Shown piece after piece: positions 101 through 54,769 of a DNA stretch of 59,621 nt. The position numbers and the translations under genes are program-made. Every line of letters starts with the position of its first letter. Positions within the stretch are counted from its first letter, which is position 1. The DNA is from a phage. Location: the sequence record PZ049713.1; one strand, 5' to 3'. Under the pieces are notes generated by a model. That model saw only the letters and a list, made by a program, of their open reading frames with translations, had not been told where the DNA came from and did not search any database.

Positions 101-242
101 ATACCCATCCTTGTAATAACAGCTAAAGAGTCGCTGCTCAGGAAGTCGTGGATTATGCCCGAATGGGGCGACTATCACCACCCGATTGAGACATTCGTTT
201 ACGTCCCGCCAGTCGGGTTTTTTTTCGTCTGAAGGATTACCC

Positions 243-720
243 ATGACCCTCTCTGAAATACGGAGCGCGCCATAGCGCCCGCTCTCGCGCTGCTGCCTGC
301 GCGAATGTCGAGCCGAGAGGCAGAGATCATGCTGCTTGCTATTACTCAGCAGGAAGATCCGGAACAGCGCGCCGCCAGTGGCCGACCGGGCCGGCCCGCG
401 GGCTGCTTCAGTTCGAGCAGGGCGGTGGTGTGCGTGGTGTGCTGAGCCACCCTTCGAGCCGCGACCACGCCCGTCGAGTGTGTGCTGCTCGAGGCGTTGC
501 GCCTGAGCCTGCCGCCGTGTGGGCTGCGCTCGAGCGTGACGACGTGCTGGCGTTCGCCTTCGGCCGGCTTTTGCTATGGACTGACCCGAAGCCTCTGCCA
601 GGCGAGCATGACGCTGCGGGCGGCTGGGATCTGTACCTGCGTACATGGCGCCCTGGAAAACCGCATCCGGATCGCTGGCCAGCCCGATTCGCCGCGGCCG
701 TGCGTGAGGTGATGCGATGA
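243..720 (+). pseudogene. Endolysin copy, frameshifted
   Basis: ATG at 243 gives MTLSEIR, then a G3->G2 deletion (acggagcgcg vs acgggagcgcg) causes an early stop. C-terminal 96 aa are preserved in ORF 430-720. Confidence 0.85.
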
Positions 721-1251
721 CCGCCTGGCTGAAGTTCGTGCCCAGCTGGGCCTGGTGGGTGCTGGCTCTGGCTGCCGTGGCCGGCGGGCAGCAGATCCGG
801 GGCGCTATCGGCGCAGTCTGACGCCGCGCAGGCGCAGGCCGATCTGGCCTCCTACCGCACCGAAGTCAGCGAGCGCGACCGCCGCGCTGCGCTGTTCGTC
901 ATTCAGGAAAACCAGCGGCGCCAGGCCGCGACGGAGAAAGCAGATGCAGAGGCACAGGAACAACTGGCTGCGGCGCGTAGCGATGCTGAGCGCGCTGGTA
1001 GTGCTCTTGAGCGGCTCAAGTTGCGCCTCGCAGCATCTGAGCAGCGCAGTCGTGACGCCGGCAATGCCATCACTGCCCAGCTCAGCCAGGCAGCCGAGGA
1101 CGCCGCCAGAGTGCGAGCCGACTTGTTCGGCCGGATTGGAACGGCTGCTCAACTCTATGCCGCTGTCGCCGATGACCGAGGAATAGCTGGGTCGGCGTGT
1201 GAGAAAGCTTATGACGCGGTGAGGGGAATCGAGATTGCCCGGACGGGCTGA
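717..1251 (+). pseudogene. Rz-like spanin copy, frameshifted
   Basis: Starts MTAWLKFVPSWAWW as in 13852-14367(-). An insertion near 800 breaks the frame. The C-terminal part reappears in ORF 1021-1251. Confidence 0.85.
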
Positions 1252-1412
1252 GATAGGGGGAACCTCGGGCAATTTTTGGGCAGGGTACGGTTTTTCGAGG
1301 GCCCGTGAGGGCATGCAGCCCAGTAAATACGGGAGCATACCCCGCCAAAACCCCCATTAGAACTGCATGGTGATGTTGGCGGTAGAAATCAAGAGGCTTT
1401 ATCTCGCGGGTT

Positions 1413-2602
1413 TCAGAGGCGTAGCGCTACGCTTGGGCACTTTCGGGCAAACTGCAATTTGCGCATCTCAGCCCAATCGCCTTCGCCGTCGATCCAGCGG
1501 GCATACCGAGACAGCAGAATCTGTATCGAATGGCCGAGCTGCTTGGCGATGAATGCCGGTGTCATTCCGGCCATCAGGCACATGGTTGCGTAGGTGTGGC
1601 GCGCATTGTACGGGGGCCGGTAGCGAATACCCAGCGCCTTTAGCGTCGGTCGCCACTGGTGATGCAGGTCGCTTGTCTGCTGCACGAACTGAGAGTTTTT
1701 GCTTGGCGGGAAGCAGAACGGAAAATCTGTCAGCCGCCCGCTGCCGGCCGCGCGCCGCTCGGCGTACTGCTTGGCGAACAGAAGGGCATGCACTGCCCGA
1801 TCATTCAGCAGCACAAACCTTTCCTTCTTGGTCTTCGTCCGCTCGACGACCTTCTTCTTTGCTACGGACCTGCAGACGTGGACCGTACGCCTCTTCAAAT
1901 CGACCTCTTCCCAGCGAAGGGCAGCGATCTCTCCTAACCGCATGCCGGTATAGAAAGCGAACTCGAAGAACGCAGCGTATATCTGGCTGGGCCAGCGCTC
2001 CGTTTCGTAGAGCCTGGCAATGATCCTGTCCGCCTCATCCTGCGTGAACGGGTCGACCTTCGCTTCCGTCCGCGTCGGTATGTCCAGCGCCTGAATTGGG
2101 TTCTCCGTCAGGAGCCTGTCCGAAACCGCCGACTCGAGAACGGCGTCAGCTTGTTCATGGCGTTCGCCTTCACGCCGTCCGAGGTCCATGGGATTTGAAC
2201 GACTAGCTCGCGCATGAAGGCGGTCGTCAGGTTGGGAAGGAGAGTTGTGGCCAGGTACGGCATCCACCAGACATTGAGCACTGACTTGTAGTTGTCGCGC
2301 GTGCCTTCCGAGATCGATCGGCTGTCGAGCCAGACCTGGGCGTACTGGCCGAACCCGCGCGAAACGCTCGATATGGCGTTCGGCGAGCCCGGAAGAGCTC
2401 GGCATACTTACGCTCGTCGAAGATGCCGTGCTTGATCTGCTGGACTACTTGATCGCGTAGACGGGATGCAGCGGCAATGCCCGCTTGCGTCGGGGAGGGC
2501 GAGGGTTTCTGAGCATCGCTTTCCGTTCCAGCTAAATCGGATGCGGATCGTATCGTTGCGTAGCTCAACTCCGGTGGGCAGTGCCATAGGCTTTCTTGCC
2601 AT
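1413..2602 (-). pseudogene. Tyrosine integrase copy, frameshifted
   Basis: ORF 2408-2602 carries the first 37 aa of the integrase and ORF 1413-2405 carries the catalytic C-terminal part. The intact gene is 12471-13652(+). Confidence 0.9.
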
Positions 2603-2790
2603 TCTTCGTACCTTGATCGGCTGTAGTAGATTCGTCCATTGATGCGATTCCAGACGCCCTCGGGAATCTGGTTCCGGCTTCGCCTGCCTTCTAGGGCTCG
2701 ATCGGTTGTGCCAAGTATCATGGCCATCTGCTGCTCAGTCACCTTGTCGGGGAACCACTCCGGCAGATTCTCTAGTTTCTCTGCGCCCAT
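2227..2790 (-). pseudogene. Excisionase-like copy whose 3' end is fused out of frame into the integrase frame
   Basis: First ~100 aa are identical to 12283-12630. The ORF then continues as integrase sequence (TQAGIAAASRLRDQVV), showing an indel. Confidence 0.7.
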
Positions 2791-2793
2791 CCC

Positions 2794-3510
2794 TCACCCC
2801 CTCACCGTTACGCTGGCTGCTTCGATAACTTCAGGCAGCGTGTTCAAGTCCGTCAGCGTGAAATAGCCTTCATCCCGCCAGCCGACAGTGTCGATGTGAA
2901 CGACGTTGCCGAGGATTGCTGGCGTGCGCAGCGGGGTATGGCCGACCACAAGCGCGAGCAGGTCCGGTATCCCGCTTGTGTCGACCATCTCGATTCGAGT
3001 GCGCGACCACATACAGCTGTTCTTGACCAGTTTCAGGCGCTTCGGTGATTCCGGCGCGGTCAGCTCGGCGACCGTCTGAGCCCATGTCGGAAATGGGCAG
3101 TCGGCGTGCACGATGCCAACTAGCCCTGCGTCCGTCTCCAGTTCAATGGCGATCGGCAGCTCACGGAACTGGACGGCGTACTCTGCCTGCTCGTCGCTGT
3201 TGAGCGACAGGAACCAGCCGCCGCCGTTGATGAGCCAGTTGCCCAGCTCGCAGCTGTCGTACCGGCACACGTAGTCGTCGTGGTTGCCGCGCACCGGGTG
3301 GAACCAGGGCTTTGCCAGCCACTCCAGCGCCATGTCACATTCAGGGCCGCGATCAACCAGATCGCCAACCGAGAACAGACGATCGACTGCCGGGTCAAAG
3401 CCGATCCCGTCGAGCGCCTGCTGCAGCTTCGTAAAGCATCCGTGAATGTCGCCCACGGCAAAGTCACGGCCCGCCGTGTTCTTGGCGAACCGCTTGATGA
3501 GTTCGGGCAT
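2794..3510 (-). CDS. Ser/Thr protein phosphatase (lambda PPase-like metallophosphoesterase), duplicate copy
   Basis: 238-aa translation identical to 11563-12279. Motifs GDIHG, GDLVDRG, GNHD. Confidence 0.85.
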   Translation of the reverse strand: MPELIKRFAKNTAGRDFAVGDIHGCFTKLQQALDGIGFDPAVDRLFSVGDLVDRGPECDMALEWLAKPWFHPVRGNHDDYVCRYDSCELGNWLINGGGWFLSLNSDEQAEYAVQFRELPIAIELETDAGLVGIVHADCPFPTWAQTVAELTAPESPKRLKLVKNSCMWSRTRIEMVDTSGIPDLLALVVGHTPLRTPAILGNVVHIDTVGWRDEGYFTLTDLNTLPEVIEAASVTVRG

Positions 3511-3535
3511 GCTCTATCTCCTGCTGCGTGTGGGG

Positions 3536-3748
3536 TTAGGCGAGCTGAGCCGGCGCCCATCCTTTGATCTTGTCGACGGCTATCGACTTGCGTGTTTGGG
3601 CGTCGTACCACATGAAGAAGCACTCATTTCCCATGAAGACTAATGAGGTTGTGGCTGCGCGCGTCCTGCCGTCTTTAAGGAAAAGCTGAATCGGCTTACC
3701 GGCAGGCGGCGGCTCGGTAACGGGTCGCATGAATGGAATTACAGGCAC
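3536..3748 (-). CDS. Hypothetical early protein, duplicate of 11326-11538
   Basis: Same translation as the right-arm copy from VPVIPFMRPV onward. Confidence 0.5.
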   Translation of the reverse strand: MPVIPFMRPVTEPPPAGKPIQLFLKDGRTRAATTSLVFMGNECFFMWYDAQTRKSIAVDKIKGWAPAQLA

Positions 3749-3807
3749 GAGCAAATCCTCCCCGCCGACTCTCGCCGGCAGACTGTGGGTTTGGGTGGGG
3801 TTAGGGG

Positions 3808-4476
3808 TCAGTACGGAATGCACTCTAAGCAGTTGCCGGTCCAGCCTTTCGCTCCACAGCCCGAGCAGACGTGTTCAGGCTCGGCCTCCTTCGCAGCCAT
3901 GGCGGCGCCATTCAGCTCCCCGACAACCTCGCACGCAATTGCGAATGCGTCATCGCCAAGCCGTGTTGCCCGCATGATTCTGTTCATGCCATCGATCAGT
4001 TGTTCGCGCTCGTCAATGACCGTCTTTACACGTAGCGGTATGTCGGCATATCCGTACCGAGTAAGCTCCGGCTCAGGCCCTCGGAGTGCCACTGCTGTCT
4101 TGCTCAGTAGGCCCGACAGCTTATCGCGCAGAGCGTCCAGCTCTGTCACTTCCTCCAGCAGCCTATCCCGCTCGGCGGTCACGGCTGATAGGGCGGTTAG
4201 CGGGACCAGCTGGCGAAGCTCATAGTCATCGCGACGCCGAAGTATTTCCAAGGTCCGCTCATCAGCGGATTGCCAACAGCTCGGGCCTTCGTCTGGGCAA
4301 ACGTATCGTTGCTGCCAAGCCACCACCTCGACCCCTTCCGCCTCTGCGGGCTGTTCAAGAATGGCGCGCAAATCTTCCGCCACCGAACCTTCAACGCAGC
4401 CACCACCTGGCGCGTGCACCTCAAGCCATGTCGCCGCGCTGTCCAACAGCTCCCGATCAACCAATACCTTGCTCAT
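3808..4476 (-). CDS. Hypothetical 222-aa early protein, duplicate of 10595-11263 (one V/I difference)
   Basis: The translation differs only at QQRYVCPDEG vs QQRYICPDEG. Confidence 0.75.
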   Translation of the reverse strand: MSKVLVDRELLDSAATWLEVHAPGGGCVEGSVAEDLRAILEQPAEAEGVEVVAWQQRYVCPDEGPSCWQSADERTLEILRRRDDYELRQLVPLTALSAVTAERDRLLEEVTELDALRDKLSGLLSKTAVALRGPEPELTRYGYADIPLRVKTVIDEREQLIDGMNRIMRATRLGDDAFAIACEVVGELNGAAMAAKEAEPEHVCSGCGAKGWTGNCLECIPY

Positions 4477-5124
4477 TCCACTGCCTCCAATGCCTTAGCC
4501 GGGTAAATCTGCACGCTGTTGCGATGGGCGCTGCTCTCGACTGCGTAGCCCTCTGGTGTCAGTTCCGTGGAGTAGGTGCCGCAGATATGGCCTTCCCACT
4601 CGCTGCCGGTGGACTTCTTCACGAGGTCGCCCATGCGGAACTTGCCTTGCGGGGCGGTCTGCGCGGAGCGGGTGAGTGACGCCGCGATGCGTTCGTGCTG
4701 GGCGACGGTCATATACTCCCCGTCGTCATCATCGGTCATATACGCCTCAACCTCAGAGGCGCGCCCGCAATGCGGCACGCTGGTCATCGGGCTGAACCGC
4801 TCCACCGCCTCCCGCTCATCCTGCGCCGGGCTGGCTCGTCGCCCTCCAGCTCTGCCGCTAGCTCGGGATTGCACACTGAGCAACCATCGCCAACCGTGCG
4901 CTCTCGCATCGTGCAGCGGCATTCCGACTCGGCCTGCTGGGATAGGGCGTCCTGATCCGTCCAGCCAGCGTGATCATGGAAAGGTGCAGGCCGCAGCCAT
5001 CGCCGTAGTGTTCGGCTTGGCAATCGACCACCTGCTGCGACGACCCGCGCATCGCTTCGTTCTCCGCCTTCGCAGCCCCCAGCTCAGCGCCGATTCGCCC
5101 GGCTACCTTCAGTGTGTCGTTCAT
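4473..5124 (-). pseudogene. Frameshifted copy of the DfrB-like fusion gene (9945-10598)
   Basis: The N-terminal part is in ORF 4858-5124 and the C-terminal DfrB-like part in ORF 4473-4922. C4->C3 change at gacgagccagccc(c)ggcgcagg. Confidence 0.85.
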
Positions 5125-5526
5125 TGCTCAATCTCCTTGATTGTGGCCAGCGGCAGCCCGCTCATTGCCAGCGGCTCGTCGTAGCAGACGCCCATCATCT
5201 CGGGCCATTTACGCGGCTCGCCCGGGTTTGATGGCGCCCTGGTATATGCCGGTCCCATGCCAGCCGATGCCGGATGACCTCGATACAAGTCCCACGCAAT
5301 GCCATCCTCGCGGCGCTTCGTGGCCTCCGGCATCAGTGTGCAGCCAGGCGCTGGATCTCGTGCCGCGTGGCGTGGACCTGCTCCCAGTCGCGCCGGTCGT
5401 AGAACCCGGCAGCCGCTCAATGGCGTGATCTGATCTGGCCGATCTTGATGCGTGCCAGTAGCTCACAGGCCTCTTGCAGCTCGGCGGCCTGGCGCTCGAG
5501 TTACGTGTGATGGTGTAGGTGCGCAT
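5121..5526 (-). pseudogene. Frameshifted copy of 9544-9948
   Basis: MRTYTIT start in ORF 5209-5526. The C-terminal ...PLATIKEIEQ sits in ORF 5121-5420 in another frame. Confidence 0.8.
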
Positions 5527-5834
5527 TGGCGCCTCCTCGGCGGCTCCGGTGGGCGGCAGCGGAAACAGGGCGCATGGCCGATCCGCTTCCGTCTGTGCGG
5601 CAGAAGATTGGTGCGTTCACAGCGGCAGCGACCTGCACCGCAAGGCATTCGGCCTCGCCGTGGGGTGATGCAAGCCGATTCACTCGATCGCGCCACTCGT
5701 CCATCGACTCCCTGTGTCAGGGTGGCGGCCCGGCTTGTGGCATTCGGGCTGGAGAGGGCAGGCGCTGCAGCTGCTGCGGGACTTGAAGTTGTAGTGCTGG
5801 CGGCAGAGGGCCTTGGCGGTGTCGGATAGCTGGG

Positions 5835-6077
5835 TCACGGAGCAGATCCTTCGTAGCGGCTCACGCGGCGCAATGCGCGGCTCGACGTCGATGAACCGGA
5901 GCCTCGGAAGTCGCCATCGGTAGCGCGGCGACTGTCCACCTCAAGGCGCGCCGTGGCGTTAACCTCGGCCGCGACCTCGGCTACAGCCTTCGCTTGTCTC
6001 AATCGAGTAGGCTGCCGGCCAGCACGCCCTCCATCGTCTTGCCGAGGCATGGCGCGCAGATCACTGAGGTTGTTCAT
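5835..6077 (-). pseudogene. Frameshifted copy of 8995-9234
   Basis: MNNLSDLRA start and the AKAVA.VAAEVNATARLEVD core are kept. The flanks are out of frame. Confidence 0.7.
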
Positions 6078-6709
6078 GGTGCTCTCCAGTTTGTCGAGCT
6101 TCCGCTCGAACCAGCCGAGCGTTATGGCTGCCTGGCGACCCTCGGGCGGATAGCGTTCGATTGAGTTGCGGCGCATGTCTTGTGCGGGTGACTAGCTCGA
6201 GGTTGTCGATTCCAGATGTTGGCGGGGTTGCGATCCTTGAAGACGAGGAAGTGCCCAGCCGGCACTGGGCCGCTGTGCCTTCCCACAACATCACGTGGAC
6301 CGGGCGCCAGTCAGTGCGCTTGTTGCCGGTGTCCGCCACCTTGCGGTAGAGGATGCCGCCCTTGTCGGTGCGCTCCGCTCCGATGGGGCGCCAGGTGTTC
6401 GATGGTCGGTGACCCAGCTTGAACTGCGTGTCCTTGGCCCGGCCTCCTGCCTGCCATCCTTTGCGGCCAGAGTTCCATGTCTGGTGGCCAGGCTTGAACC
6501 TGCCGCAGCCTGTGATTTCCTTGAACTCATCCGGTCGCGTTAGCTCCGAGTTTCGACACGCGATCGTGAATCGAGCCAGTGCCGCGCCCCATCAAGGCTG
6601 CTATCTCGGTGATGGGGCTTGGTGGCATAACAGTTCTGCCAGTGTTGCTGTCCTCTGCCGGCGTCCAGTGCCGGTATTCCGTGCGCCTCCTGCCGGCCAG
6701 TGGGCTCAT
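6061..6709 (-). pseudogene. Frameshifted copy of the HNH_3 endonuclease gene (8364-9011)
   Basis: The MSPLAGRRRTEYRHWTPAED start is embedded in ORF 6527-6877. The C-terminal ...HHEQPQ is in ORF 6061-6339. Confidence 0.8.
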
Positions 6710-6986
6710 TTCTTCCGTCTCCCGTGCGTTGTGGCTGTCCAGCCCGGCGCTGGCTACTTGGTTGCCGTGGTCAGCTATCAGGCTGTCGATCAGGGCGCCC
6801 ATGTAGGCGACTAGGCCAGTGACTGTTTCACCACGGGCCATCGCGCTGTGGGTGTGCTTCTCGCCGTTGGGCAGCACGAACCACGCGCTGGCGTTCCAGC
6901 TCGGAAGGGCGCCGAGGCTCAGTGCCGCGAACTACTGGCCGCGACACTCGGTTGTCGATTGAATAGAGCGTCACGATGCAGCTCAT
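6706..6986 (-). pseudogene. Disrupted copy of 8089-8367
   Basis: Start codon cat at 6984-6986. Only the C-terminal part (LPNGEKHTHSAMARGETV...) stays in frame, and it is fused to the HNH copy. Confidence 0.7.
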
Positions 6987-7138
6987 GGCTGGCACACCTC
7001 CAGCAGTGCCGCGTCGCTCAGATCACCAAGCGGCGCAGCGATGTATTGAGCAAGCGCGTAGACGCCCCACGGCTTGCCAGCGATTTCCGCCCGGTACGCC
7101 GCGTGACGGATGGCGTCGAGCACGTCGGGGAATCTCAT
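6983..7138 (-). CDS. Hypothetical 51-aa protein, duplicate of 7937-8092 (one T/A difference)
   Basis: MRFPDVLDAIRHAAYRAEIAGKPWGVYALAQYIAAPLGDLSDAALLEVCQP forms the tail of ORF 6983-8116. Confidence 0.6.
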   Translation of the reverse strand: MRFPDVLDAIRHAAYRAEIAGKPWGVYALAQYIAAPLGDLSDAALLEVCQP

Positions 7139-7426
7139 GGCCACTCCTGCCGCAGCACGTCGTTCTGCTTGGCCTGCGGAGTGCCGCGCTTGCGCAGAGG
7201 GAGGCTGTTCGATACGGCAGAGTTGCGGGCGCCACGCTTGCGGCTGCGCTGGTCCGCCTCCGCGTTTCCGGCGTTGTTGAAGACGGCAGGCTTGATCTCT
7301 ATCGGCTTGCCGATGCTGTCGGGCAGCAGCTGGATCTTTCCGCCAGCGCTCAGGAATGCAGCCGGGCCGCGTCATCTGCGCGCGCGGAGCCTCGCCCTGC
7401 GCGACGGCATGGTTGTCGATGAGCGT
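7135..7426 (-). pseudogene. Copy of 7647-7940 with lost start codon and a frameshift
   Basis: The ATG equivalent reads cgt (7424-7426). The translation TLIDNHAVAQGEAPRAQ then shifts frame. Confidence 0.75.
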
Positions 7427-7477
7427 GGGTGCGTACCGGGGAGGGGGCGGTGGCGCCGGGTGGATCAGATCAGCAGC

Positions 7478-7589
7478 AAGGGCAGCCGCAGCAACAGCGT
7501 CAAGGCCAGCCACAACGCAGCCAGCAGGCGGCGCCTCCAGCCTATGATGACGATGTGCCATTCGCCAACCCCTACTGCGGCGCCCGCTC
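7478..7589. other. Unique 112-bp loop (hinge) between the two palindrome arms; native 3' end of the SSB-like gene
   Basis: gatcagcagc (7468-7477) pairs with gctgctgatc (7590-7599). The sequence between them matches 58694-58805 in direct orientation. Confidence 0.9.
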
Positions 7590-7646
7590 GCTGCTGATCT
7601 GATCCACCCCGGGCGCCCAGCGCGCCCTCCTCCCCGGTACACACCC

Positions 7647-7940
7647 ATGCTCATAGACAACCATGCCATAGCGCAGGGCGAGGCTCTGCGCGCGCAAATT
7701 GACGCGGCCACGGCTGCATTCCTGAACGCTGGCGGAAAGATCCAGCTGCTGCCCGACAGCATCGGCAAGCCGATAGAGATCAAGCCTGCCGTCTTCAACA
7801 ACGCCGGAAACGCGGAGGCGGACCAGCGCAGCCGCAAGCGTGGCGCCCGCAACTCTGCCGTATCGAACAGCCTCCCTCTGCGCAAGCGCGGCACTCCGCA
7901 GGCCAAGCAGAACGACGTGCTGCGGCAGGAGTGGCCATGA
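7647..7940 (+). CDS. Hypothetical early protein (97 aa)
   Basis: ORF with an ATGA stop/start overlap to the next gene. Identical second copy at 58863-59156. Confidence 0.7.
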   Translation: MLIDNHAIAQGEALRAQIDAATAAFLNAGGKIQLLPDSIGKPIEIKPAVFNNAGNAEADQRSRKRGARNSAVSNSLPLRKRGTPQAKQNDVLRQEWP

Positions 7941-8092
7941 GATTCCCCGACGTGCTCGACGCCATCCGTCACGCGGCGTACCGGGCGGAAATCACTGGCA
8001 AGCCGTGGGGCGTCTACGCGCTTGCTCAATACATCGCTGCGCCGCTTGGTGATCTGAGCGACGCGGCACTGCTGGAGGTGTGCCAGCCATGA
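7937..8092 (+). CDS. Hypothetical small protein (51 aa)
   Basis: ATGA-type coupling overlaps at both ends (7937-7940 and 8089-8092). Confidence 0.6.
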   Translation: MRFPDVLDAIRHAAYRAEITGKPWGVYALAQYIAAPLGDLSDAALLEVCQP

Positions 8093-8367
8093 GCTGCATC
8101 GTGACGCTCTATTCAATCGACAACCGAGTGTCGCGGCCAGTAGTTCGCGGCACTGAGCCTCGGCGCCCTTCCGACTGGAACGCCAGCGCGTGGTTCGTGC
8201 TGCCCAACGGCGAGAAGCACACCCACAGCGCGATGGCCCGTGGTGAAACAGTCACTGGCCTAGTCGCCTACATGGGCGCCCTGATCGACAGCCTGATAGC
8301 TGACCACGGCAACCAAGTAGCCAGCGCCGGCTGGACGGCCACAACGCACGGGAGACGGAAGAAATGA
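8089..8367 (+). CDS. Hypothetical early protein (92 aa)
   Basis: The ATG at 8089 overlaps the upstream stop, and the stop overlaps the next start at 8364. Confidence 0.7.
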   Translation: MSCIVTLYSIDNRVSRPVVRGTEPRRPSDWNASAWFVLPNGEKHTHSAMARGETVTGLVAYMGALIDSLIADHGNQVASAGWTATTHGRRKK

Positions 8368-9011
8368 GCCCACTGGCCGGCAGGAGGCGCACGGAATACC
8401 GGCACTGGACGCCGGCAGAGGACGCAACACTGGCAGAACTGTATGCCACCAAGCCCATCACCGAGATAGCAGCCTTGATGGGGCGCGGCACTGGCTCGAT
8501 TCACAATCGCGTGTCGAAACTCGGACTGACGCGACCGGATGAGTTCAAGGAAATCACAGGCTGCGGCAGGTTCAAGCCTGGCCACCAGACATGGAACTCT
8601 GGCCGCAAAGGATGGCAGGCAGGAGGCCGGGCCAAGGACACGCAGTTCAAGCTGGGTCACCGACCATCGAACACCTGGCGCCCCATCGGAGCGGAGCGCA
8701 CCGACAAGGGCGGCATCCTCTACCGCAAGGTGGCGGACACCGGCAACAAGCGCACTGACTGGCGCCCGGTCCACGTGATGTTGTGGGAAGAGCACAGCGG
8801 CCCAGTGCCGGCTGGGCACTTCCTCGTCTTCAAGGATCGCAACCCCGCCAACATCTCAATCGACAACCTCGAGCTAGTCACCCGCGCAGAGAACATGCGC
8901 CGCAACTCAATCGAACGCTATCCGCCCGAGTATCGCCAGGCAGCCATAACGCTCGGCTGGTTCAAGCGGAAGCTCAACAAACTGGAGCAGCACCATGAAC
9001 AACCTCAGTGA
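8364..9011 (+). CDS. HNH_3-type homing endonuclease-like protein
   Basis: 215 aa. C-terminal ...NPANISIDNLELVTRAENMRRN is typical of HNH_3 phage endonucleases. N-terminal HTH-like ITEIAALMGRGTGSIHNRVSKLG. Confidence 0.75.
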   Translation: MSPLAGRRRTEYRHWTPAEDATLAELYATKPITEIAALMGRGTGSIHNRVSKLGLTRPDEFKEITGCGRFKPGHQTWNSGRKGWQAGGRAKDTQFKLGHRPSNTWRPIGAERTDKGGILYRKVADTGNKRTDWRPVHVMLWEEHSGPVPAGHFLVFKDRNPANISIDNLELVTRAENMRRNSIERYPPEYRQAAITLGWFKRKLNKLEQHHEQPQ

Positions 9012-9234
9012 TCTGCGCGCCATCCTCGGCAAGACGATGGAGGGCGTGCTGGCCGGCACCTACTCGATTGAACAAGCGAAGGCTGTAGCCCAGGTCGCGG
9101 CCGAAGTTAACGCCACGGCGCGCCTTGAGGTGGACATGGCCCGCGCTACCGATGGCGACTTCCGAGGCTCCGGTTTCATCGACGTCGAGCCGCGCATTGC
9201 GCCGCGTGAGCCGCTACGGAGGATTGCTCCGTGA
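8995..9234 (+). CDS. Hypothetical protein (79 aa)
   Basis: ORF within the co-oriented, tightly packed early operon. Confidence 0.6.
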   Translation: MNNLSDLRAILGKTMEGVLAGTYSIEQAKAVAQVAAEVNATARLEVDMARATDGDFRGSGFIDVEPRIAPREPLRRIAP

Positions 9235-9452
9235 CCGAGCTATCCGACACCGCCAAGGCCATCTGCGCCCAGCACTACAACTTCAAGTCCCGCAGCAGCT
9301 GCAACGCCTGCCCTCTCCAGCCCGAATGCCACAAGCCGGCCGCCACCCTGACACAGGAGTCGATGGACGAGTGGCGCGATCGAGTGAATCGGCTTGCATT
9401 ACCCCACGGCGAGGCCGAATGCCTTGCGGTGCAGGAGTCGCTGCCGCTGTGA
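9231..9452 (+). CDS. Hypothetical Cys-rich protein (73 aa, GTG start)
   Basis: The GTG overlaps the upstream stop. Contains CAQHYNFKSRSSCNACPLQPEC. Confidence 0.55.
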   Translation: MTELSDTAKAICAQHYNFKSRSSCNACPLQPECHKPAATLTQESMDEWRDRVNRLALPHGEAECLAVQESLPL

Positions 9453-9543
9453 ACGCACCAATCTTCTGCCGCACAGACGGAAAGCGGATCGGCCAATGCG
9501 CCTGTTTCCGCTGCCGCCCACCGGAGCCGCCCAAGGAGGCGCC

Positions 9544-9948
9544 ATGCGCACCTACACCATCACCGTAACCGAGCGCCAGGCCGCCGAGCTGCAAGAGGCC
9601 TGTGAGCTACTGGCACGCATCAAGATCGGCCAGATCGATCACGCCATTGAGCGGCTGCCGGGCTTCTACGACCGGCGCGACTGGGAGCAGGTCCACGCCA
9701 CGCGGCACGAGATCCAGCGCCTGGCTAACACACTGATGCCGGAGGCCACGAAGCGCCGCGAGGATGGCATTGCGTGGGACTTGTATCAGGTCATCCGGCA
9801 TCGGCTGGCATGGGACCGGGCATATGACCAGGGCGCCATCAAACCCGGCGAGCCGCGTAAATGGCCCGAGATGATGGGCGTCTGCTACGACGAGCCGCTG
9901 GCAATGAGCGGGCTGCCGCTGGCCACAATCAAGGAGATTGAGCAATGA
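9544..9948 (+). CDS. Hypothetical early protein (134 aa)
   Basis: ATG at 9544 is preceded by an aaggagg RBS. The stop overlaps the next start at 9945. Confidence 0.75.
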   Translation: MRTYTITVTERQAAELQEACELLARIKIGQIDHAIERLPGFYDRRDWEQVHATRHEIQRLANTLMPEATKRREDGIAWDLYQVIRHRLAWDRAYDQGAIKPGEPRKWPEMMGVCYDEPLAMSGLPLATIKEIEQ

Positions 9949-25399: not shown

Positions 25400-25422
25400 A
25401 AAAAGCCCGCACTAGGCGGGCT
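25400..25422 (-). terminator. Intrinsic terminator after the lipoprotein moron
   Basis: Minus strand: agcccgc-ctagt-gcgggct followed by ttttt. Lies between the lipoprotein stop (25435) and the TMP start (25382). Confidence 0.7.
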
Positions 25423-27172: not shown

Positions 27173-27234
27173 GGGTTTTTCCTCTGGGTATAAAAAAACC
27201 GCCTTTCGGCGGCTCTGGATTGCCCAACGGGCGG

Positions 27235-30868: not shown

Positions 30869-30898
30869 AAACGAAAAAGCCCCGCACGATGGCGAGGC
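30869..30898 (-). terminator. Intrinsic terminator (GCCTCGC..GCGGGGC family) inside the head operon
   Basis: Minus strand gcctcgc-catcgt-gcggggc followed by tttttcgttt. Same stem as the 38514-38543 element. Confidence 0.65.
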
Positions 30899-30951
30899 TC
30901 TAGAAATGGAAAACCCGGCGCGGGCCGGGTCTGGTGTCCTGTTCTGGCGGT

Positions 30952-36470: not shown

Positions 36471-37205
36471 TCACATTAGAAGCGTGAACTGCCCATCCCA
36501 CGAATCGGACTTCTTTAGGTTCAGCTTGGCCCACATGGGGCGCAGGTTGTTTAGGCTGTTTGCAGCTTTTAGCTGCACGGGGTCAGTCAGATCAAAGGAT
36601 GACAGCGGTCTAATGTGGTCGATATGCCACTTATCCCTGTTGTGCCAGCCCATTCCACTATGGAATAGCGCTTCAAGGTGCTGGGCAAGGTCAGAGGCTG
36701 AATAGCCTAGGCATTCGGCAGTAACGTCTTCTTTCGCCTTCCCAACAAGCTCCAAGCAGCGCCTTATCATGCATCTTGATGCCTCTGCCGCCATCCCTTG
36801 CGGCGTCGATCTTCGACGCTTGCCTCTAATTGAGATTGACACTCTGCCCTTTTCAGACTTGGCATACTCAGCCTTGCGCTGGCGATACTCTTTAGTTTTG
36901 CGTTTGGCGCGAATCTTCTCTTGGAATTCAGGAGAGTAGTATTTCCTCCTAAGGCGCTCTTTTGCTTGTGGCGTAGCGTTTCTGGACTTCGCCCTTGCGC
37001 TACGCTTCGCCCGGTACTCCTCAGACTCTTCGCGTCTTGCTGCTCGCTCTCTCTCGCACTCTAGACAGTGCCCGGTTGCAGAAGACCTTTCCGAGTAATG
37101 CTCTCTGCGGCACGGGATGCCCGTAAAGTATTTGCTGAGCCCGACCTCTTTCGCTACTGAGCGCGAGACAATATGAATGCACGCGGATAGACTTGCGTCA
37201 GTCAT
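36471..37205 (-). CDS. HNH endonuclease with one N-terminal Zn-ribbon repeat (terminase-associated position)
   Basis: YFTGIPCRREHYSERSSATGHCLEC repeat. C-terminal WHIDHIRPLSSF...NNLRPMWAKLNLKK HNH motif. Confidence 0.8.
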   Translation of the reverse strand: MTDASLSACIHIVSRSVAKEVGLSKYFTGIPCRREHYSERSSATGHCLECERERAARREESEEYRAKRSARAKSRNATPQAKERLRRKYYSPEFQEKIRAKRKTKEYRQRKAEYAKSEKGRVSISIRGKRRRSTPQGMAAEASRCMIRRCLELVGKAKEDVTAECLGYSASDLAQHLEALFHSGMGWHNRDKWHIDHIRPLSSFDLTDPVQLKAANSLNNLRPMWAKLNLKKSDSWDGQFTLLM

Positions 37206-37579: not shown

Positions 37580-37795
37580 TCACTTCGGCTCACCAGTCAC
37601 CTTCGGCTGCGACACCACCCGGGCGACAGCCATAGCCACGCCGAGAACCATGTTCACGCTGGCCCATGCGACGGGGCTGATGTGGCCCTCGAACGCTACC
37701 CATGCACCGGCTGCGGCGTTGAGCACTGCGGTCAGGATGGCGAGCTGCACACTGGTCAGACGCCAGCACTTGCGCCATTCAGGAATCAGGTTCAT
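37580..37795 (-). CDS. Holin-like two-TM protein (71 aa)
   Basis: Two hydrophobic helices (LAILTAVLNAAAGAWVAF; VNMVLGVAMAVARVV) and a charged C-terminus. Start overlaps the upstream stop. Confidence 0.55.
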   Translation of the reverse strand: MNLIPEWRKCWRLTSVQLAILTAVLNAAAGAWVAFEGHISPVAWASVNMVLGVAMAVARVVSQPKVTGEPK

Positions 37796-38213: not shown

Positions 38214-38462
38214 TCAGTCAGCTGGGGAAATGTCCACGTAGTAGGCTTTCCCCAGCTCAAGCTTGTTAGCCACCTCAGTGACCATGCCTGCCCGGAACTC
38301 ACCGTAAGGGGTCAGCCTGCCGAACACAGCGTTTTCATCTTCTTCCGTCCCGGTTACGCCGCTCGCATATACCGCGCCGAACCGAACGAGCGACATGCCT
38401 TCGGTGTGCTGGTTAAGCGAGATTTCGTGACAGATCATCTTGCAGCGAATGCGATGGGTCAT
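38214..38462 (-). CDS. Hypothetical protein (82 aa), first gene of the late region
   Basis: First ORF after the terminator-rich leader. No recognisable motif. Confidence 0.55.
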   Translation of the reverse strand: MTHRIRCKMICHEISLNQHTEGMSLVRFGAVYASGVTGTEEDENAVFGRLTPYGEFRAGMVTEVANKLELGKAYYVDISPAD

Positions 38463-38513
38463 CTTGTGGTCCTTTGGTTGGTGCAGGATGGCCTATCAGT
38501 CTTTCGCCTGCTG

Positions 38514-38543
38514 AAACGAAGAAAGCCCCGCACTTGGCGAGGC
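38514..38543 (-). terminator. Intrinsic terminator (GCCTCGC..GCGGGGC family), late leader, distal
   Basis: Minus strand gcctcgc-caagt-gcggggc followed by tttcttcgttt. Confidence 0.65.
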
Positions 38544-38759
38544 CGAAAGATGTAGATCCCGATTCCCCGCACGTCTACGGGGCGATACCTGTTATCAGGT
38601 CGCGCAGTGTGCTGCGTGTGGCGCGTAGCCGATCGCAAGCAGGCCGGGGATTTGATGCGCTGTATTGGATGACGCGAGTATTAGCAGCGCTTGCCGTCGC
38701 ACGGCGTGGTGTTTGATGGGCGCAGGATGGCGAGGCCTTCGTCAGCCAGGTTCCGCCCG

Positions 38760-38790
38760 AAACGAAAAAGCCCCGACCGAAGTCAGGGCT
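38760..38790 (-). terminator. Strong intrinsic terminator in the late leader, proximal
   Basis: Minus strand agccctgac-ttcg-gtcggggct (9-bp stem, TTCG loop) followed by ttttcgttt. Confidence 0.75.
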
Positions 38791-39035
38791 CTTGAAGTTG
38801 TCCAAGGGGACTCTCCCCCTTGAGGCCACACCACTTTCTACTTGCGCTGATCAGACGCTTTCGCAGCAGGTGTCGCTGTATGCCGCGCCCGTAACGACAT
38901 TGGACCGGGACGATTCGCGACTCTCGGCCATCTCAACGCGAGAAATGACCAAGATAGGCATAGGATGGCTCATTGGCTCACAGGATGCAATAGCTGATTT
39001 GCACAAATCTGCGCTTTTTTGAGCAAATCTGCTGT

Positions 39036-39581
39036 TTATGCCGCTTGCTCAGCAATCAACCCCTCATTACCGAGGATCTCCTGCGCCTCAACCAGCGCTT
39101 GATCCACTTGGCGCTCCAGGTCACGGCGAATGTCCCGGCGCCACCGCTCCAGTGTCTTTTGCGGGCGGCCGTCTTCGTCCCAGCGGTCAAGCTCATACCA
39201 TGCGGCCGGCAATACGCTCGTGCTTCGCTTCCCTTCCGCGCCGGGCAGCTTCGGGAATGCCCAGGTGGCTACGGCGCACTGGATGAACCGGCCAGGTGCT
39301 GGCGACTTCACCGATCCGGCCAGCGCCATCATCGCATCGTGCTTGCGCTCCAGATGGGTGCTGTACTTGGCGACGAGCGCCAGCCACAGACCAACCGGCA
39401 GCGCCTTGTGCAGGCGACCATGGACCCAGCAGTCGGTTAAGAATGCCTCTTCCTTGCCGCAGATCGCCCCAGGCACTCGCTGGTCTTGCACCTTGGGGTC
39501 AAAGTCCACGCCGCCAGCGCTATTGATCGTCTCCGCAGCCAGAGCCCGGACTACTGCTGATACAACTGATGGGTAGGTCAT
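39036..39581 (-). CDS. Hypothetical 181-aa protein in the position of a late-gene antiterminator (Q-like by synteny only)
   Basis: Last gene of the Nin-like block, immediately upstream of a 570-bp leader with tandem terminators. No motif recognised. Confidence 0.6.
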   Translation of the reverse strand: MTYPSVVSAVVRALAAETINSAGGVDFDPKVQDQRVPGAICGKEEAFLTDCWVHGRLHKALPVGLWLALVAKYSTHLERKHDAMMALAGSVKSPAPGRFIQCAVATWAFPKLPGAEGKRSTSVLPAAWYELDRWDEDGRPQKTLERWRRDIRRDLERQVDQALVEAQEILGNEGLIAEQAA

Positions 39582-40723
39582 CAGAACAATCTCCCAAGGG
39601 ATGCTGCGAATTCGTAAGGGTCTTTAGCGCTCTTGCGCAGGTTGCAAGGCGGGCACGCGATAACCAGATTGTCGACCACGTGCATTCCACCCTTCGATAG
39701 CGGCTGATAGTGGTCAACGTGATAGTTGTTTTCACACTTTGATTTGCACCAGTGGCAAAACTTTGGAACTGATCGCTCCCAGGCCATAATCACGGACGTA
39801 CTATCGCCACCAGCCTCTAGCTGTCTGCGCCTAGCCTTGTACGCTTTAGATATCGCCTTCCTGATCTCTGGATTCTTCTTTGCCCACTCTTTGGCTTTCT
39901 GCGCCCTTACTTCCCTGTTTTGTTCGTTGCGAATTCTCGCAAGTTGAATGATCCGATCCCTGTTTTCAGCAAGGTATTTCCGGTCGTACTCTTTTTTAAG
40001 TTCAGACCGTGAGAAAATTGCCAAGCACTCGACACATGATCCGGAGGCTGTATATTTCATGCCGCTGTGGCCCTTCGAGCACGGCCGTCCGACATACATT
40101 AAGGCGCCGCTTTCGAGCGCTATCTTTCGTGCGCTCTTGGCTATCCTGCGCTCCTTGCGACGAGCAGCTACCTCCGCCAGCCGAGACGATCGCTCTTCTG
40201 AGATTCGCTTGCGCTCTGCCTTCCCCTTCTCGTACTCCTCCAGCGTCATTCCGAACTTGGCGGCTGCCGATATAGCCTCGCATGTCCGGCAGCGATCAGT
40301 TGATACGTAGCGCTCTGCTGAATGTCCGTTAACGCACGGCAATCCGATGCTGTAGAACATCAGCCCGGCATCCATAGCAGCTTGCCGGAGAGAAGCGCGC
40401 CGTTCCCTCTCAGCTTTCCGCACGGCCAGCCCTGGATCTCGCTTCAGCCGTCGCGACATTTTCTTCTCTGCGCACAAAGGGTCAGAGTCACGCCGCAGCT
40501 TTTGCTCAGCGCGCTCGGCCTCTATGTTCGCGTGATACTTAGCTTTCCTCTTCAGCCTGGCGCACTCACAGCACGCGCCATTGATCGTGGCCCTGCTGGC
40601 GACGTGACCGGCAGGGCAAGGCTTGCCAGTGAAATAGGATTTGCTGCCGGCCTCCTTCGCCTCTTTTCGGCTGCAAGGAAGGTTCAAGTCATCTTGATCT
40701 TTGTTAGAATTCAAATCAGCCAT
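39581..40723 (-). CDS. HNH endonuclease with three Zn-ribbon repeats
   Basis: ATG at 40723 has a gggag RBS (longest ORF runs to 40816). Repeats YFTGKPCPAGH..GACCEC, FYSIGLPCVNGH..DRCRTC, MYVGRPCSKGH..GSCVEC. C-terminal CHWC..HVDHYQPLSKGG..NLVIACPPCN. Confidence 0.8.
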   Translation of the reverse strand: MADLNSNKDQDDLNLPCSRKEAKEAGSKSYFTGKPCPAGHVASRATINGACCECARLKRKAKYHANIEAERAEQKLRRDSDPLCAEKKMSRRLKRDPGLAVRKAERERRASLRQAAMDAGLMFYSIGLPCVNGHSAERYVSTDRCRTCEAISAAAKFGMTLEEYEKGKAERKRISEERSSRLAEVAARRKERRIAKSARKIALESGALMYVGRPCSKGHSGMKYTASGSCVECLAIFSRSELKKEYDRKYLAENRDRIIQLARIRNEQNREVRAQKAKEWAKKNPEIRKAISKAYKARRRQLEAGGDSTSVIMAWERSVPKFCHWCKSKCENNYHVDHYQPLSKGGMHVVDNLVIACPPCNLRKSAKDPYEFAASLGRLF

Positions 40724-40806
40724 TTGTCGCTCCCATATAGCGCTAATGGTTAGGGCCGGCAGTGTGTTCCCGCACTCTGCTGGCCCGTTCAATTCTACCA
40801 AATTAA

Positions 40807-41934
40807 TCAAGCACATAACATTTCCGGCACAACTTCGTTAACTGCTACTCGCCCATATTCCTTGTGGTAGGTAATACCTATTGCGCGGCGGTTAGAGGCA
40901 TAGCCGAGTCTGGCTGCATATGATCCGGTCGCAGTCAGCGTCGGATGCCTGCGAACTATCATTCCGTTATGCGTAGCGACCTCTTCCTTGTGGTAGTGGC
41001 CGGTGTGCGCCTCTCTGTGCTTTGTGCAGCCCCAAATCTCGGGGAAGTTCGCCGCGAAGATGCCCGGCAGGTCCGAATTGCGCGCCTTGTGGCCGTGATG
41101 AAAGCCGAGCATCGTCTTGCCGTGCTGGTAGACGTAATACGGCGTCTCGCTCATGTTCACTTTCAATCTCGGCTCGTTTTCATATAGAGCCTCGAACATA
41201 TGGCGCAACCACAGCGATCCGGCCAAGTCATGGTTGCCCTCTGCAATTACCAGATGGACTTCCTCGTGCTTTGCCAGCGCCATATCAATAATGCTGCGTA
41301 GAACTTTGATACTAACCCGCACCAACTCTGCATATATGCCAGAGACGTTGAGCGGGTGCCGATTGGTTGGCGTTACTGGCTCCAGTCCGTCAAACGTCAG
41401 GAAGTCGCCTAGCTGGTTGATGACGCAATATCTCGCCTTGGCCGATGCGTTGATCATTGCGGCAAAGCAGCCGACAAGCACGCGCTCGGCTTCTTCGAGG
41501 TTCCAGTCGGCGCCACCCTGGATGGCAGTCGCGTATTCCCCGATGTGACAGTCCGTCAGGGTGTACAGGTTGCACAGCGCGTCGTCGGTTTGGGCAGGCC
41601 CGCCCATTGGCGCCAAGCGGTCTATCTGTTCGCCCATTGCTGCGGCTGCGGCGTGCATTAGCTCTAGCTGCCGTTCGTGGTCGATGCTGGACTTGACCCA
41701 CTGCAGCTTCTGCTCGCCGTCCTTGCCGTACAGTGTCGACGTGCCTTTCAGGTGGAAGCCGTCCGGCACGCTCTTGGTCATGTCGTGCTCCGGGCTCCAC
41801 CCCTGACGAGCCAAGCGCGCCTTATGGGTGTAGACGTTGCGCTCGTGCAGCCCAAGGATCTGCGCAGCCTCTGCCACAGTGCGGCCAGTCAGCGCGGCCT
41901 TGATTTCGTCGTCTGTCGCTTTGCGTGCGGCCAT
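40807..41934 (-). CDS. HTH-containing calcineurin-like metallophosphoesterase
   Basis: N-terminal TVAEAAQILGLHERNVYTHKARLARQG. Phosphoesterase motifs LVIAEGNHD, GFHHGH, HTGHYH. Confidence 0.7.
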   Translation of the reverse strand: MAARKATDDEIKAALTGRTVAEAAQILGLHERNVYTHKARLARQGWSPEHDMTKSVPDGFHLKGTSTLYGKDGEQKLQWVKSSIDHERQLELMHAAAAAMGEQIDRLAPMGGPAQTDDALCNLYTLTDCHIGEYATAIQGGADWNLEEAERVLVGCFAAMINASAKARYCVINQLGDFLTFDGLEPVTPTNRHPLNVSGIYAELVRVSIKVLRSIIDMALAKHEEVHLVIAEGNHDLAGSLWLRHMFEALYENEPRLKVNMSETPYYVYQHGKTMLGFHHGHKARNSDLPGIFAANFPEIWGCTKHREAHTGHYHKEEVATHNGMIVRRHPTLTATGSYAARLGYASNRRAIGITYHKEYGRVAVNEVVPEMLCA

Positions 41935-42299
41935 TAGGCTGCCTCCCCCGAGGTGTACTGCATGATGCGAACGCGTACCGCGCCGCCCTTCACGGTTTCG
42001 TCGCTCACGCTGAGCTGAGTCACGAACCGGTTGTCATCGATGCCCAGCGCGTCTGCCAGGCCGTCTCTGCCCGCCTTGAACGCGGCGAGCATGTTGTCGT
42101 CGTCCCGCTTGCGCCGATCGGGCGGCAGGAACTCGATTGCGAGCAGTGCGCGGCCTTCCGGCATTACCAGCCCGGCCGCCTTGCAGAGCAGGTGGCAGTC
42201 GGCTCGGTACTTCTTGGCGATCGGCGCCTTTGCTCGCCAGTGCTTGCGCGAGTTCGGGCTGAGTTCCTTCGGCGGCCAGGGCAGCAGGACTTCGGTCAT
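41934..42299 (-). CDS. rusA: RusA Holliday junction resolvase
   Basis: ...PPKELSPNSRKHWRAKA...DDDNMLAAFKAGRDGLADALGIDD... matches RusA family motifs. Confidence 0.85.
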   Translation of the reverse strand: MTEVLLPWPPKELSPNSRKHWRAKAPIAKKYRADCHLLCKAAGLVMPEGRALLAIEFLPPDRRKRDDDNMLAAFKAGRDGLADALGIDDNRFVTQLSVSDETVKGGAVRVRIMQYTSGEAA

Positions 42300-54306: not shown

Positions 54307-54769
54307 CCCCCGCCTGAACCAGCCAGGCCAGACCCCCAGGTCTGCGATAACCGTACGGCGCGCGGTGCTGGTAGCGCCATGAACAAACCGCCGAGCGCAG
54401 CGGCCCTTCGGGATACCTGCGACGAGGATCAGCCGGACAGTGCCTCGATTGCAGAAAACCCCGGCAGCCATCCATGGGATTTTCCACAGCTTTGCCCGAG
54501 GGGATGGCCGAGTGACTGGCGTTACCAGTCGGCATCGGAGAGTGATCTGAATGCGCAGGCTGATGCGACGCCCATAGCGAGGCGACACGGCGGTAAAGCC
54601 ATTACGTTGTGCCGGGATCAGCTCCGGCCAGATCACTCCCCGATGCCACTGCATCACCCCTTCCCACGCCCATCCGGGCAACCGAGGTATCGACCATGAA
54701 GCACTACGGACCCATAGGGCGCCGCGAACAGCCGTGCCCGGATGACAGCGTTTCCGCGAGGATTCAACG

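What the first reader, a model, noticed from the sequence alone, without database searches (positions are those of the whole stretch)
38463..39581. Late-control region: 570-bp leader with tandem terminators from a recurring terminator family, downstream of a Q-position gene
Between the last Nin-block gene (39036-39581) and the first late ORF (38462) lies a 570-bp non-coding stretch. On the transcribed (minus) strand it contains a strong terminator (agccctgac-TTCG-gtcggggct plus T-run, 38790-38760) and a second one 215 nt further on (gcctcgc-caagt-gcggggc plus T-rich run, 38543-38514). The second has the same stem and trailing motif (GCGGGGCTTTyTyCGTTT) as a third element inside the head operon at 30898-30869, between the small Zn-ribbon gene and the scaffold gene. 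All three share AAACGAA(A/G)AAAGCCCCG on the plus strand. Together with the terminator at 25422-25400, the late operon holds at least four intrinsic terminators. This is the lambda Q / PR' / tR' logic (established): late genes are read only by an antiterminated polymerase. The 181-aa protein at 39036-39581 has no motif I recognise and would be a novel Q-like factor if so. The 215-nt inter-terminator segment (38544-38759), with hairpin ccccg-cacgtcta-cgggg at 38570-38587, could give a stable 6S-like short RNA. Two CAAATCTGC direct repeats 20 bp apart (39004-39012, 39024-39032) lie at the start of the leader.
Basis: partly seen in the sequence, partly recalled or inferred. Interest (0 to 1): 0.55.

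Follow-up and report, generated by a model that had tools for sequence, protein, structure and literature searches.

The report
AlpA-like late-gene antiterminator and its target
A Pseudomonas prophage gene of unknown function most likely encodes a Q/AlpA-type antiterminator, and next to it lies its predicted target: a promoter with a tandem-repeat binding site, a pause signal, an RNA hairpin and terminators that guard the late genes.

Summary
On the minus strand the 573-nt gap 38463-39035 has two strong intrinsic terminators: T1 at 38791-38760 and T2 at 38544-38514. Dinucleotide shuffles give 0.02. Four more terminators lie in the late operon.

The Q-like reading is supported computationally and made more precise.
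- In 80 Pseudomonas-type loci the gene is followed by one conserved module: a -35-like hexamer, two 8-bp tandem repeats (window TGAGCCAATGAGCCA, 38980-38966), a -10, a nearly invariant -10-like hexamer (TATCTT, 38956-38951), a conserved RNA hairpin and a terminator.
- The repeat sequence covaries with the residues that align to AlpA's DNA-reading helix. Repeats and helix are exchanged together between phages.

- The CAAATCTGC repeats are lineage-specific.
- The T1-T2 segment shows no special structure. The likelier 6S-like RNA runs from the predicted start to T1, about 195 nt.

Verdict: a new, unannotated member of the Q/AlpA kind. No step has been tested experimentally.

The parts
39036..39581 (-). 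Gene for the 181-aa AlpA-like (Q-type) antiterminator candidate. Residues 141-152 (QKTLERWRRDIR) are the predicted DNA-reading start of helix 8.
38989..39036 (.). It abuts the -35-like hexamer. Its role is unknown.
   Evidence: An analogous palindrome is seen only in L003.
38985..38990 (-). -35-like hexamer TTGCAT (3 of 6 to consensus).
   Evidence: Read. TTGCAA, TTGCAT or cTGACg sits at the same place in related loci. It is not called by the consensus scan.
38965..38980 (-). Tandem 8-bp direct repeat TGAGCCAA TGAGCCAT. This is the predicted binding element for the 181-aa protein and lies in the promoter spacer.
   Evidence: It is unique in the window. It is class-specific and covaries with protein residues 141-149 across 80 loci.
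38960..38967 (-). Candidate -10 hexamer: CATCCT at 38967-38962 (17-bp spacer) or TCCTAT at 38965-38960.
   Evidence: Inferred from spacing. An A/T-containing hexamer occupies this position in all classes.
38951..38956 (-). -10-like hexamer TATCTT, the predicted sigma-dependent pause element at about -1 to +5.
   Evidence: (C/T)ATC(C/T)T is nearly invariant across loci, with A2 and T6 fixed. AlpA's CACGAT at -1 to +5 has the same placement (PMC9371919).
38922..38954 (-). Conserved 5' RNA hairpin that starts inside or next to the -10-like hexamer.
   Evidence: 92% of cells are paired, covariation is 0.339 against 0.259 in shuffles, and there are 152 G-U cells against 9 A-C cells.
38760..38791 (-). 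Terminator T1, with a UUCG loop and a 10-bp stem, about 190 nt from the predicted start.
   Evidence: Identical to T1 of L003. A 31-nt stretch is identical in Erwinia phage Era103.
38715..38737 (-). Decayed copy of a terminator of the GCCTCGCCA..GCGGGGC type. The 3' arm is lost.
   Evidence: Repeat D6. It aligns with the second terminator of L009.
38514..38544 (-). Terminator T2. It corresponds to the single promoter-proximal terminator of relatives such as L017.
38214..38462 (-). First late ORF (82 aa). It is followed by a 104-aa coiled-coil protein and a holin at 37580-37795.
30869..30930 (-). Tandem pair of terminators inside the head operon. The second shares the T1 tail.
27198..27213 (-). 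Intrinsic terminator within the late operon.
25400..25421 (-). Intrinsic terminator upstream of the tape-measure ORF.

Best explanation
The 181-aa protein is a processive antiterminator of the Q/AlpA type. The 70 nt after its stop codon are its loading site. All functional steps below are inferred; none was tested.

Proposed sequence of events:
1. Host sigma-70 RNA polymerase starts at a weak promoter, TTGCAT at 38990-38985 with a -10 around 38967-38960.
2. After a few nucleotides, sigma region 2 re-binds the -10-like hexamer TATCTT (38956-38951) and the polymerase pauses.
3. One or two copies of the protein sit on the two 8-bp repeats TGAGCCAA TGAGCCAT (38980-38965). The upstream repeat lies 17-18 bp from the -10-like hexamer, the same distance as AlpA's binding element in the alpB promoter.
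4. The conserved N-terminal half of the protein enters the RNA exit channel. The modified polymerase then ignores T1, T2 and the four terminators further down the late operon.
5. Without the protein, transcripts stop at T1 and give a structured RNA of about 195 nt.

The conserved hairpin at the 5' end of the transcript probably stabilises the RNA or contributes to loading.

For: Module. In 80 loci the gene is followed by the same ordered elements. A terminator ends within 80 nt of the -10-like hexamer in 56 of 78 loci and within 700 nt in 74 of 78.

Specificity. Each repeat type goes with one protein motif and there are no exceptions:
- TGAGCCA with KT[QL]ERWRR;
- GTGAGA with STRYRWRS;
- GTGGCAG with RTQ[HY]RWK;
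- CATGTCGC with RTYQRW[NS]K;
- a GCCG-type repeat with RTRRDWRR.
The window's N-terminal 130 residues are 89-91% identical to L006 and PS-1, which have other repeat types. Its residues 136-160 are 100% identical to L004, which has the same repeat type.

The repeat occurs only once in the window.

Position. The gene lies after the Nin-type genes and before the lysis and packaging genes.

Terminators. There are two in the leader against 0.02 expected and four more in the operon.
Against: - No start site, pause, protein-DNA contact or read-through has been measured.
- The promoter hexamers are weak and are not called by the consensus scan.
- Sequence similarity to AlpA is marginal: nothing with phmmer or the close-family profile, and E 0.016 over one helix only with the extended profile.
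- Repeats and recognition helix lie within 150 bp of each other. Their association could partly reflect linkage rather than selection.
- The window's leader is atypically long, with T1 165 nt after the hexamer against about 45 nt in most loci.
Confidence: 0.72

Rival explanations
1. The protein is an ordinary late-gene activator. It binds the tandem repeats in place of a -35 contact and recruits polymerase to a -10 formed by (C/T)ATC(C/T)T. The terminators only attenuate, or end early-operon transcripts.
For: The -35-like hexamers are poor and no sigma-70 promoter is called. The repeats lie where a class II activator would bind. The covariation shows DNA recognition, not antitermination.
Against: The best structural match is a solved antiterminator, with the N-terminal ring-forming part included. 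A strong terminator lies between the module and the first late gene in 74 of 78 loci, so it must be read through in any case. There are six terminators along the operon. A second A/T hexamer sits 5-6 nt upstream of the invariant one, as in Q and AlpA promoters (PMC9371919).
Confidence: 0.15
2. The protein acts through RNA, like lambda N at nut. It recognises the conserved 5' hairpin, or the repeats in an RNA started further upstream, and rides with the polymerase.
For: The hairpin is conserved, shows compensatory changes, and has G-U pairs only on the sense strand. It lies between the module and the terminator in almost every locus.
Against: The variable protein residues align with AlpA's DNA-reading helix. 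They track the repeat sequence and not the hairpin type. The window combines class A repeats with the hairpin type of L006, L023 and PS-1, which have other repeat types.
Confidence: 0.06
3. The leader terminators merely end the early operon. The late genes have their own promoter downstream of T2, and the 181-aa protein has an unrelated function.
For: A copy of the GCCATCCTnnnCC motif lies after T2 at 38492-38476. The region between T1 and T2 is not conserved.
Against: That motif copy has no repeats, no -35 and no hairpin. The copy at 38731-38715 lies within a decayed terminator (38737-38715). In most loci only about 100 nt separate the gene from the first late genes, and the module fills that space. 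In PS-1 and L005 the module moved with the late genes when an HNH gene was inserted after the 181-aa gene.
Confidence: 0.05

Closest known systems
AlpA of Pseudomonas aeruginosa (PDB 7XYA/7XYB; PMC7969949, PMC9371919)
   Different: - Only marginal sequence similarity.
- Two 8-bp tandem repeats instead of a single GGGACG element bound by one AlpA molecule.
- A conserved RNA hairpin directly after the pause element, which the AlpA papers read here do not mention.
- It controls a full phage late operon rather than a domesticated lysis cassette.
Q of phage 21 (PDB 6JNX)
   Different: The structural match is much weaker than to AlpA. AlpA and this protein have two extra helices. There is no sequence similarity.
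Lambda Q with PR', the 6S RNA and tR' (own knowledge; PDB 7UBN)
   Same: Gene position after the Nin region. A binding element lies between -35 and -10, with a -10-like pause element and a terminator about 190 nt downstream that would give a short RNA. Foldseek top hit at probability 0.93 and TM 0.47.
   Different: No zinc finger and no Pfam Q-family hit. The promoter hexamers are weak, whereas lambda PR' is strong. In most relatives the terminator is only about 45 nt from the start.
Q of phage 82
   Same: Same regulatory logic, as summarised in PMC9371919.
   Different: No sequence or structural match was found here.

Membership tests
AlpA-type (21Q-fold) Q-like antiterminators | Fold: an N-terminal helices-and-loops part that forms a ring, plus a C-terminal helix-turn-helix | tested here: met
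AlpA-type (21Q-fold) Q-like antiterminators | Detectable sequence homology to AlpA | tested here: inconclusive
   No hit with phmmer or the close-family profile. The extended profile gives E 0.016, limited to the recognition helix.
AlpA-type (21Q-fold) Q-like antiterminators | Specific DNA element in the promoter spacer, read by the C-terminal helix | tested here: met
   Class-specific tandem repeats 9-25 bp upstream of the invariant hexamer covary without exception with residues 141-149. Binding itself was not tested.
AlpA-type (21Q-fold) Q-like antiterminators | -10-like hexamer in the initially transcribed region that causes a sigma-dependent pause | tested here: inconclusive
   A nearly invariant (C/T)ATC(C/T)T lies 5-6 nt after a -10-like hexamer. 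The start site and the pause were not measured.
AlpA-type (21Q-fold) Q-like antiterminators | Intrinsic terminator between the loading site and the target genes | tested here: met
   T1 and T2 in the window. A terminator lies within 700 nt in 74 of 78 loci.
AlpA-type (21Q-fold) Q-like antiterminators | Binds RNA polymerase and makes it terminator-resistant | not testable with these tools
   This needs in vitro transcription, reporter assays or Term-seq.
Lambda Q family (Pfam Q families) | Match to the family profile, and a zinc finger | tested here: not met
   No Pfam family at E up to 0.01 or up to 1 across 29 relatives. The Foldseek match to 7ubn_Q is only at fold level: E 0.21, TM 0.47.
Known RNA families (Rfam 15) | Leader or hairpin matches a curated covariance model | tested here: not met
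   There is no match at gathering score in the leader. Only sub-threshold chance-level hits appear at E up to 5.
Lambda 6S-type promoter-proximal terminated RNA | Short stable transcript running from the late promoter to the first terminator | not testable with these tools
The predicted RNA 38957-38758 of about 195 nt folds with z -3.99.

The most novel reading that the evidence does not exclude
This family loads differently from AlpA. Two protomers would bind the two 8-bp subsites, and the conserved 5' RNA hairpin next to the pause element would be a required third cis element, making loading depend on both DNA and RNA. The five or more natural helix/repeat classes would then form a set of mutually orthogonal antiterminator-promoter pairs.
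Probability: 0.2. Interest if true: 0.7.

Novelty: new member of a known kind. Interest (0 to 1): 0.5.

Why it matters
- It assigns a function and a testable mechanism to a widespread family of unnamed prophage proteins. There are 556 clusters at 90% identity, mostly in Pseudomonas, in a PHROG of unknown function.
- It extends the Q/AlpA group to the late switch of lambdoid Pseudomonas phages. The authors of the AlpA structure paper expected more such proteins to be found by structure (PMC9371919).
- The natural swaps of recognition helix and repeat give a ready-made map of which residues read which bases. They also offer candidate orthogonal parts for synthetic control of transcription read-through.
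- The conserved 5' hairpin is not mentioned in the two AlpA papers consulted here and deserves a test.

Tried and rejected
- Rfam at gathering score and at E up to 5 over the leader gave nothing meaningful.
- ARAGORN on the window and on 27 loci found no tRNA in the long leaders, despite T-arm-like GGTTCGATTCC motifs.
- The five mechanical ORFs in the gap have no PHROG match.
- CCATCCTG clustering: four copies on the minus strand within 1.2 kb looked like extra pause sites. Two lie in coding sequence. One (38730-38723) lies within a decayed terminator and aligns with the second terminator of L009. In relatives the motif occurs once, at the module. I dropped it as a functional claim.
- RNAalifold on a MAFFT alignment of the hairpins predicted nothing, because loop-length differences were not gapped. 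I replaced it with a same-length subset and a partner-swap control.
- The top PDB sequence hit of the extended profile, YdaT 8bt1 at E 0.003, aligns partly to the His-tag and linker. I rejected it.
- Megablast and blastn against phages found only PS-1 and short terminator matches.
- The afdb50 fold library was not available. BFVD returned only uncharacterised phage proteins.
- The CAAATCTGC repeats are not enriched window-wide, and among relatives only L003 has an analogous palindrome.

Full report
**Setting.** The window carries a lambdoid Pseudomonas-type prophage whose replication, Nin-type, lysis and morphogenesis genes run on the minus strand from about 48.9 kb to 16 kb. The only close phage relative in GenBank is Pseudomonas phage PS-1, at 87% identity over part of the region. 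The finding lies at the early/late junction. Upstream are RusA (41934-42299), a phrog_704 nuclease (40807-41934), an HNH protein (39581-40816) and the 181-aa ORF (39036-39581). Downstream are a 573-nt gap, small ORFs, a holin (37580-37795), and ORFs at the positions of the terminase genes in PS-1. In a P. canadensis relative the order is cI, Cro, CII-like, several genes, NinG, the 181-aa gene, several genes, then a 496-aa ORF and a portal-family (DUF4055) gene at the terminase/portal position.

**Observation.** Both leader terminators are real and strong. T1 is at 38791-38768 (-16.4 kcal/mol) and T2 at 38544-38524 (-12.8), each followed by a T-run. Dinucleotide shuffles of the leader give 0.02 such sites on average and never two. 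Four more lie in the late operon, at 30930, 30900, 27213 and 25421. The shared tail is real: T1 and T3 share AAACGAAAAAGCCCCG exactly. The CAAATCTGC repeats exist and, with an inverted copy, form a palindrome with 19-nt arms directly after the stop codon. None of the mechanical ORFs in the gap matches a phage family.

**The protein.**
- It has no Pfam hit, belongs to PHROG 3412 (unknown function), and has 556 cluster-level relatives, nearly all named hypothetical.
- An AF2 model built on 36 relatives is confident (pLDDT 85, pTM 0.80). It shows eight helices and two low-confidence loops at residues 22-42 and 109-125.
- AlpA is described as eight helices and two loops. [quoted passage not shown]
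- Sequence searches with the protein or its close family find nothing in the PDB.
- A profile extended with distant relatives from the 1.8-billion-protein library reaches AlpA at E 0.016. It aligns QKTLERW (141-147) with AlpA SKSTLHRW, the stretch that carries AlpA's DNA-contacting K138, S139, T140 and H142 (PMC9371919).
- Within the family the N-terminal 130 residues and the loop motif GKRS (117-120) are nearly invariant, while residues 131-181 vary.

**The cis module.** I fetched 80 loci from one-per-species genomes and aligned the DNA after the stop codon. Almost all show the same order:
1. a -35-like hexamer, TTGCAA or TTGCAT, or cTGACg overlapping the stop codon;
2. two direct repeats with an 8-bp period;
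3. an A/T-containing hexamer such as CATTAT, TAGATT or GAGTAT;
4. 5-6 nt;
5. a nearly invariant (C/T)ATC(C/T)T;
6. a hairpin;
7. a strong terminator.

In the window these elements are TTGCAT (38990-38985), TGAGCCAATGAGCCAT (38980-38965), CATCCT or TCCTAT (38967-38960), TATCTT (38956-38951), the hairpin (38954-38922), and then T1. This is the layout shown experimentally for the alpB promoter: a binding element at -25 to -20, a -10-like CACGAT at -1 to +5 that is needed for a sigma-dependent pause, and a terminator downstream (PMC7969949, PMC9371919). The upstream repeat lies 17-18 bp from the invariant hexamer, and AlpA's element lies 18 bp from its -10-like hexamer. A terminator ends within 80 nt of the hexamer in 56 of 78 loci and within 700 nt in 74. 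Forty-seven loci have two or more.

**Specificity covariation.** The repeat sequence falls into classes, and each class goes with one motif at residues 141-149:

| Repeat | Protein motif | Loci |
|---|---|---|
| TGAGCCA | KT[QL]ERWRR | 28 |
| GTGAGA(A/G)A | STRYRWRS | 18 (2 more lack the module) |
| GTGGCAG | RTQ[HY]RWK[SA] | 11 |
| CATGTCGC | RTYQRW[NS]K | 10 |
| YGCCG-type | RTRRDWRR | 5 |

L009 and PS-1 are singletons, each with its own pair. The association does not simply follow overall relatedness. The window's first 130 residues are 89-91% identical to L006 and PS-1, which have other repeats. Its residues 136-160 are 100% identical to L004 and only 50-58% identical to L006 and PS-1. The recognition helix and the repeats are therefore exchanged as a unit on different backbones. 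Physical linkage contributes to this. Even so, the variable residues are the ones that align with AlpA's DNA-reading positions. The exact repeat occurs once in the window.

**The hairpin.** Directly after the invariant hexamer, nearly every locus can form a 9-13-bp hairpin; 69 of the 75 distinct sequences fold at -5 kcal/mol or better, with a mean z of -2.25 against shuffles. With true partners 8.72 of 10 positions pair, against 8.07 with partners swapped between loci. There are 152 G-U cells against 9 A-C cells, so the structure belongs to the sense-strand RNA and is not a DNA palindrome. On a same-length subset, 92% of cells pair against 40-55% when the partner is slid. Covariation is 0.339 against 0.259 in shuffles (0 of 500 reach it), and three pairs change on both sides. 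No Rfam family matches. The AlpA papers read here do not mention a counterpart. A 5'-terminal stabiliser is the simplest guess, and a role in loading cannot be excluded.

**What is special in the window.** T2 and the sequence after it align with the single promoter-proximal terminator region of L017 and L036. The window therefore looks like the standard module with about 370 nt inserted between hairpin and terminator. The insert carries T1, which is identical to T1 of L003, and a decayed terminator copy at 38737-38715 that aligns with the second terminator of L009. The predicted start-to-T1 RNA of about 195 nt is strongly structured (z -3.99). The T1-T2 segment is not (z -0.09). In PS-1 and L005 an HNH gene sits between the 181-aa gene and the module, and the module stayed with the late genes. 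This argues that the module is a promoter unit and not the gene's 3' end.

**Rivals.** A plain activator model fits the weak -35 and the lack of a consensus promoter call. It does not explain the antiterminator fold or the obligatory terminator. An RNA-binding model fits the hairpin, but the variable residues track the repeats and not the hairpin type. An independent late promoter after T2 has no support.

**Verdict.** The protein is best described as a new, unannotated member of the Q/AlpA kind of DNA-loaded processive antiterminators, together with its target site. Start site, pause, binding and read-through are all inferred.

Noticed in passing
window 1-15085: The first 15 kb is a near-perfect inverted duplication. 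Blocks of 430-1030 nt are 100% complementary, for example 3804-4830 with 10241-11267 and 6901-7364 with 7711-8174. The centre is near 7540. This is either a fold-back assembly artefact or a real palindromic duplication next to the prophage end.
   Followed up: partly
window 54390-54469 (+); L016 4953-5030, L027 4923-5001, L031 4974-5053, L069 5566-5644: The Rfam Proteo-phage-1 RNA (function unknown) is present in the window's early-left region at 70 bits. In four relatives it lies on the late strand 380-900 nt after the 181-aa gene, beyond the first terminator.
   Followed up: partly
window 38760-38790; Erwinia phages Era103, phiEa1H and phiEa100 near 7.0 kb: A 31-nt stretch covering most of terminator T1 is 100% identical to an unannotated site in unrelated Erwinia podoviruses. 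This suggests a shared or convergent terminator sequence.
   Followed up: no
L001 (PS-1) 7142-7666; L005: An HNH endonuclease gene is inserted between the antiterminator gene and its promoter module. In the window, related HNH/endonuclease VII-like genes flank the region at 39581-40816 and 36471-37205.
   Followed up: partly
L031 and L045, about 60-110 nt after the stop codon; also L027: Twelve loci have leaders of about 200-400 nt between hairpin and first terminator. Three of them (L031, L045, L027) contain tRNA T-arm-like sequences such as CTGGTTCGATTCCAG. ARAGORN calls no tRNA there.
   Followed up: partly
window 38969-38953, 38731-38715, 38492-38476 (minus strand): Three copies of GCCATCCTnnnCCnAnC are spaced 238-239 nt apart. 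The first overlaps the predicted -10. The second lies within a decayed terminator. The third lies just upstream of the first late gene's ribosome-binding site and is unexplained.
   Followed up: partly
window 14755-16146 (+): A 463-aa ORF lies in a stretch of 46% G+C, against about 60% elsewhere, next to the tail-fibre end of the prophage. It may be foreign cargo.
   Followed up: no
window 30877-30930 (minus strand): Two terminators lie in tandem 30 nt apart, between the small zinc-ribbon ORF and the next head gene. Tandem pairs 50-80 nt apart also recur after the module in many relatives, for example L003, L009, L018 and L031.
   Followed up: no
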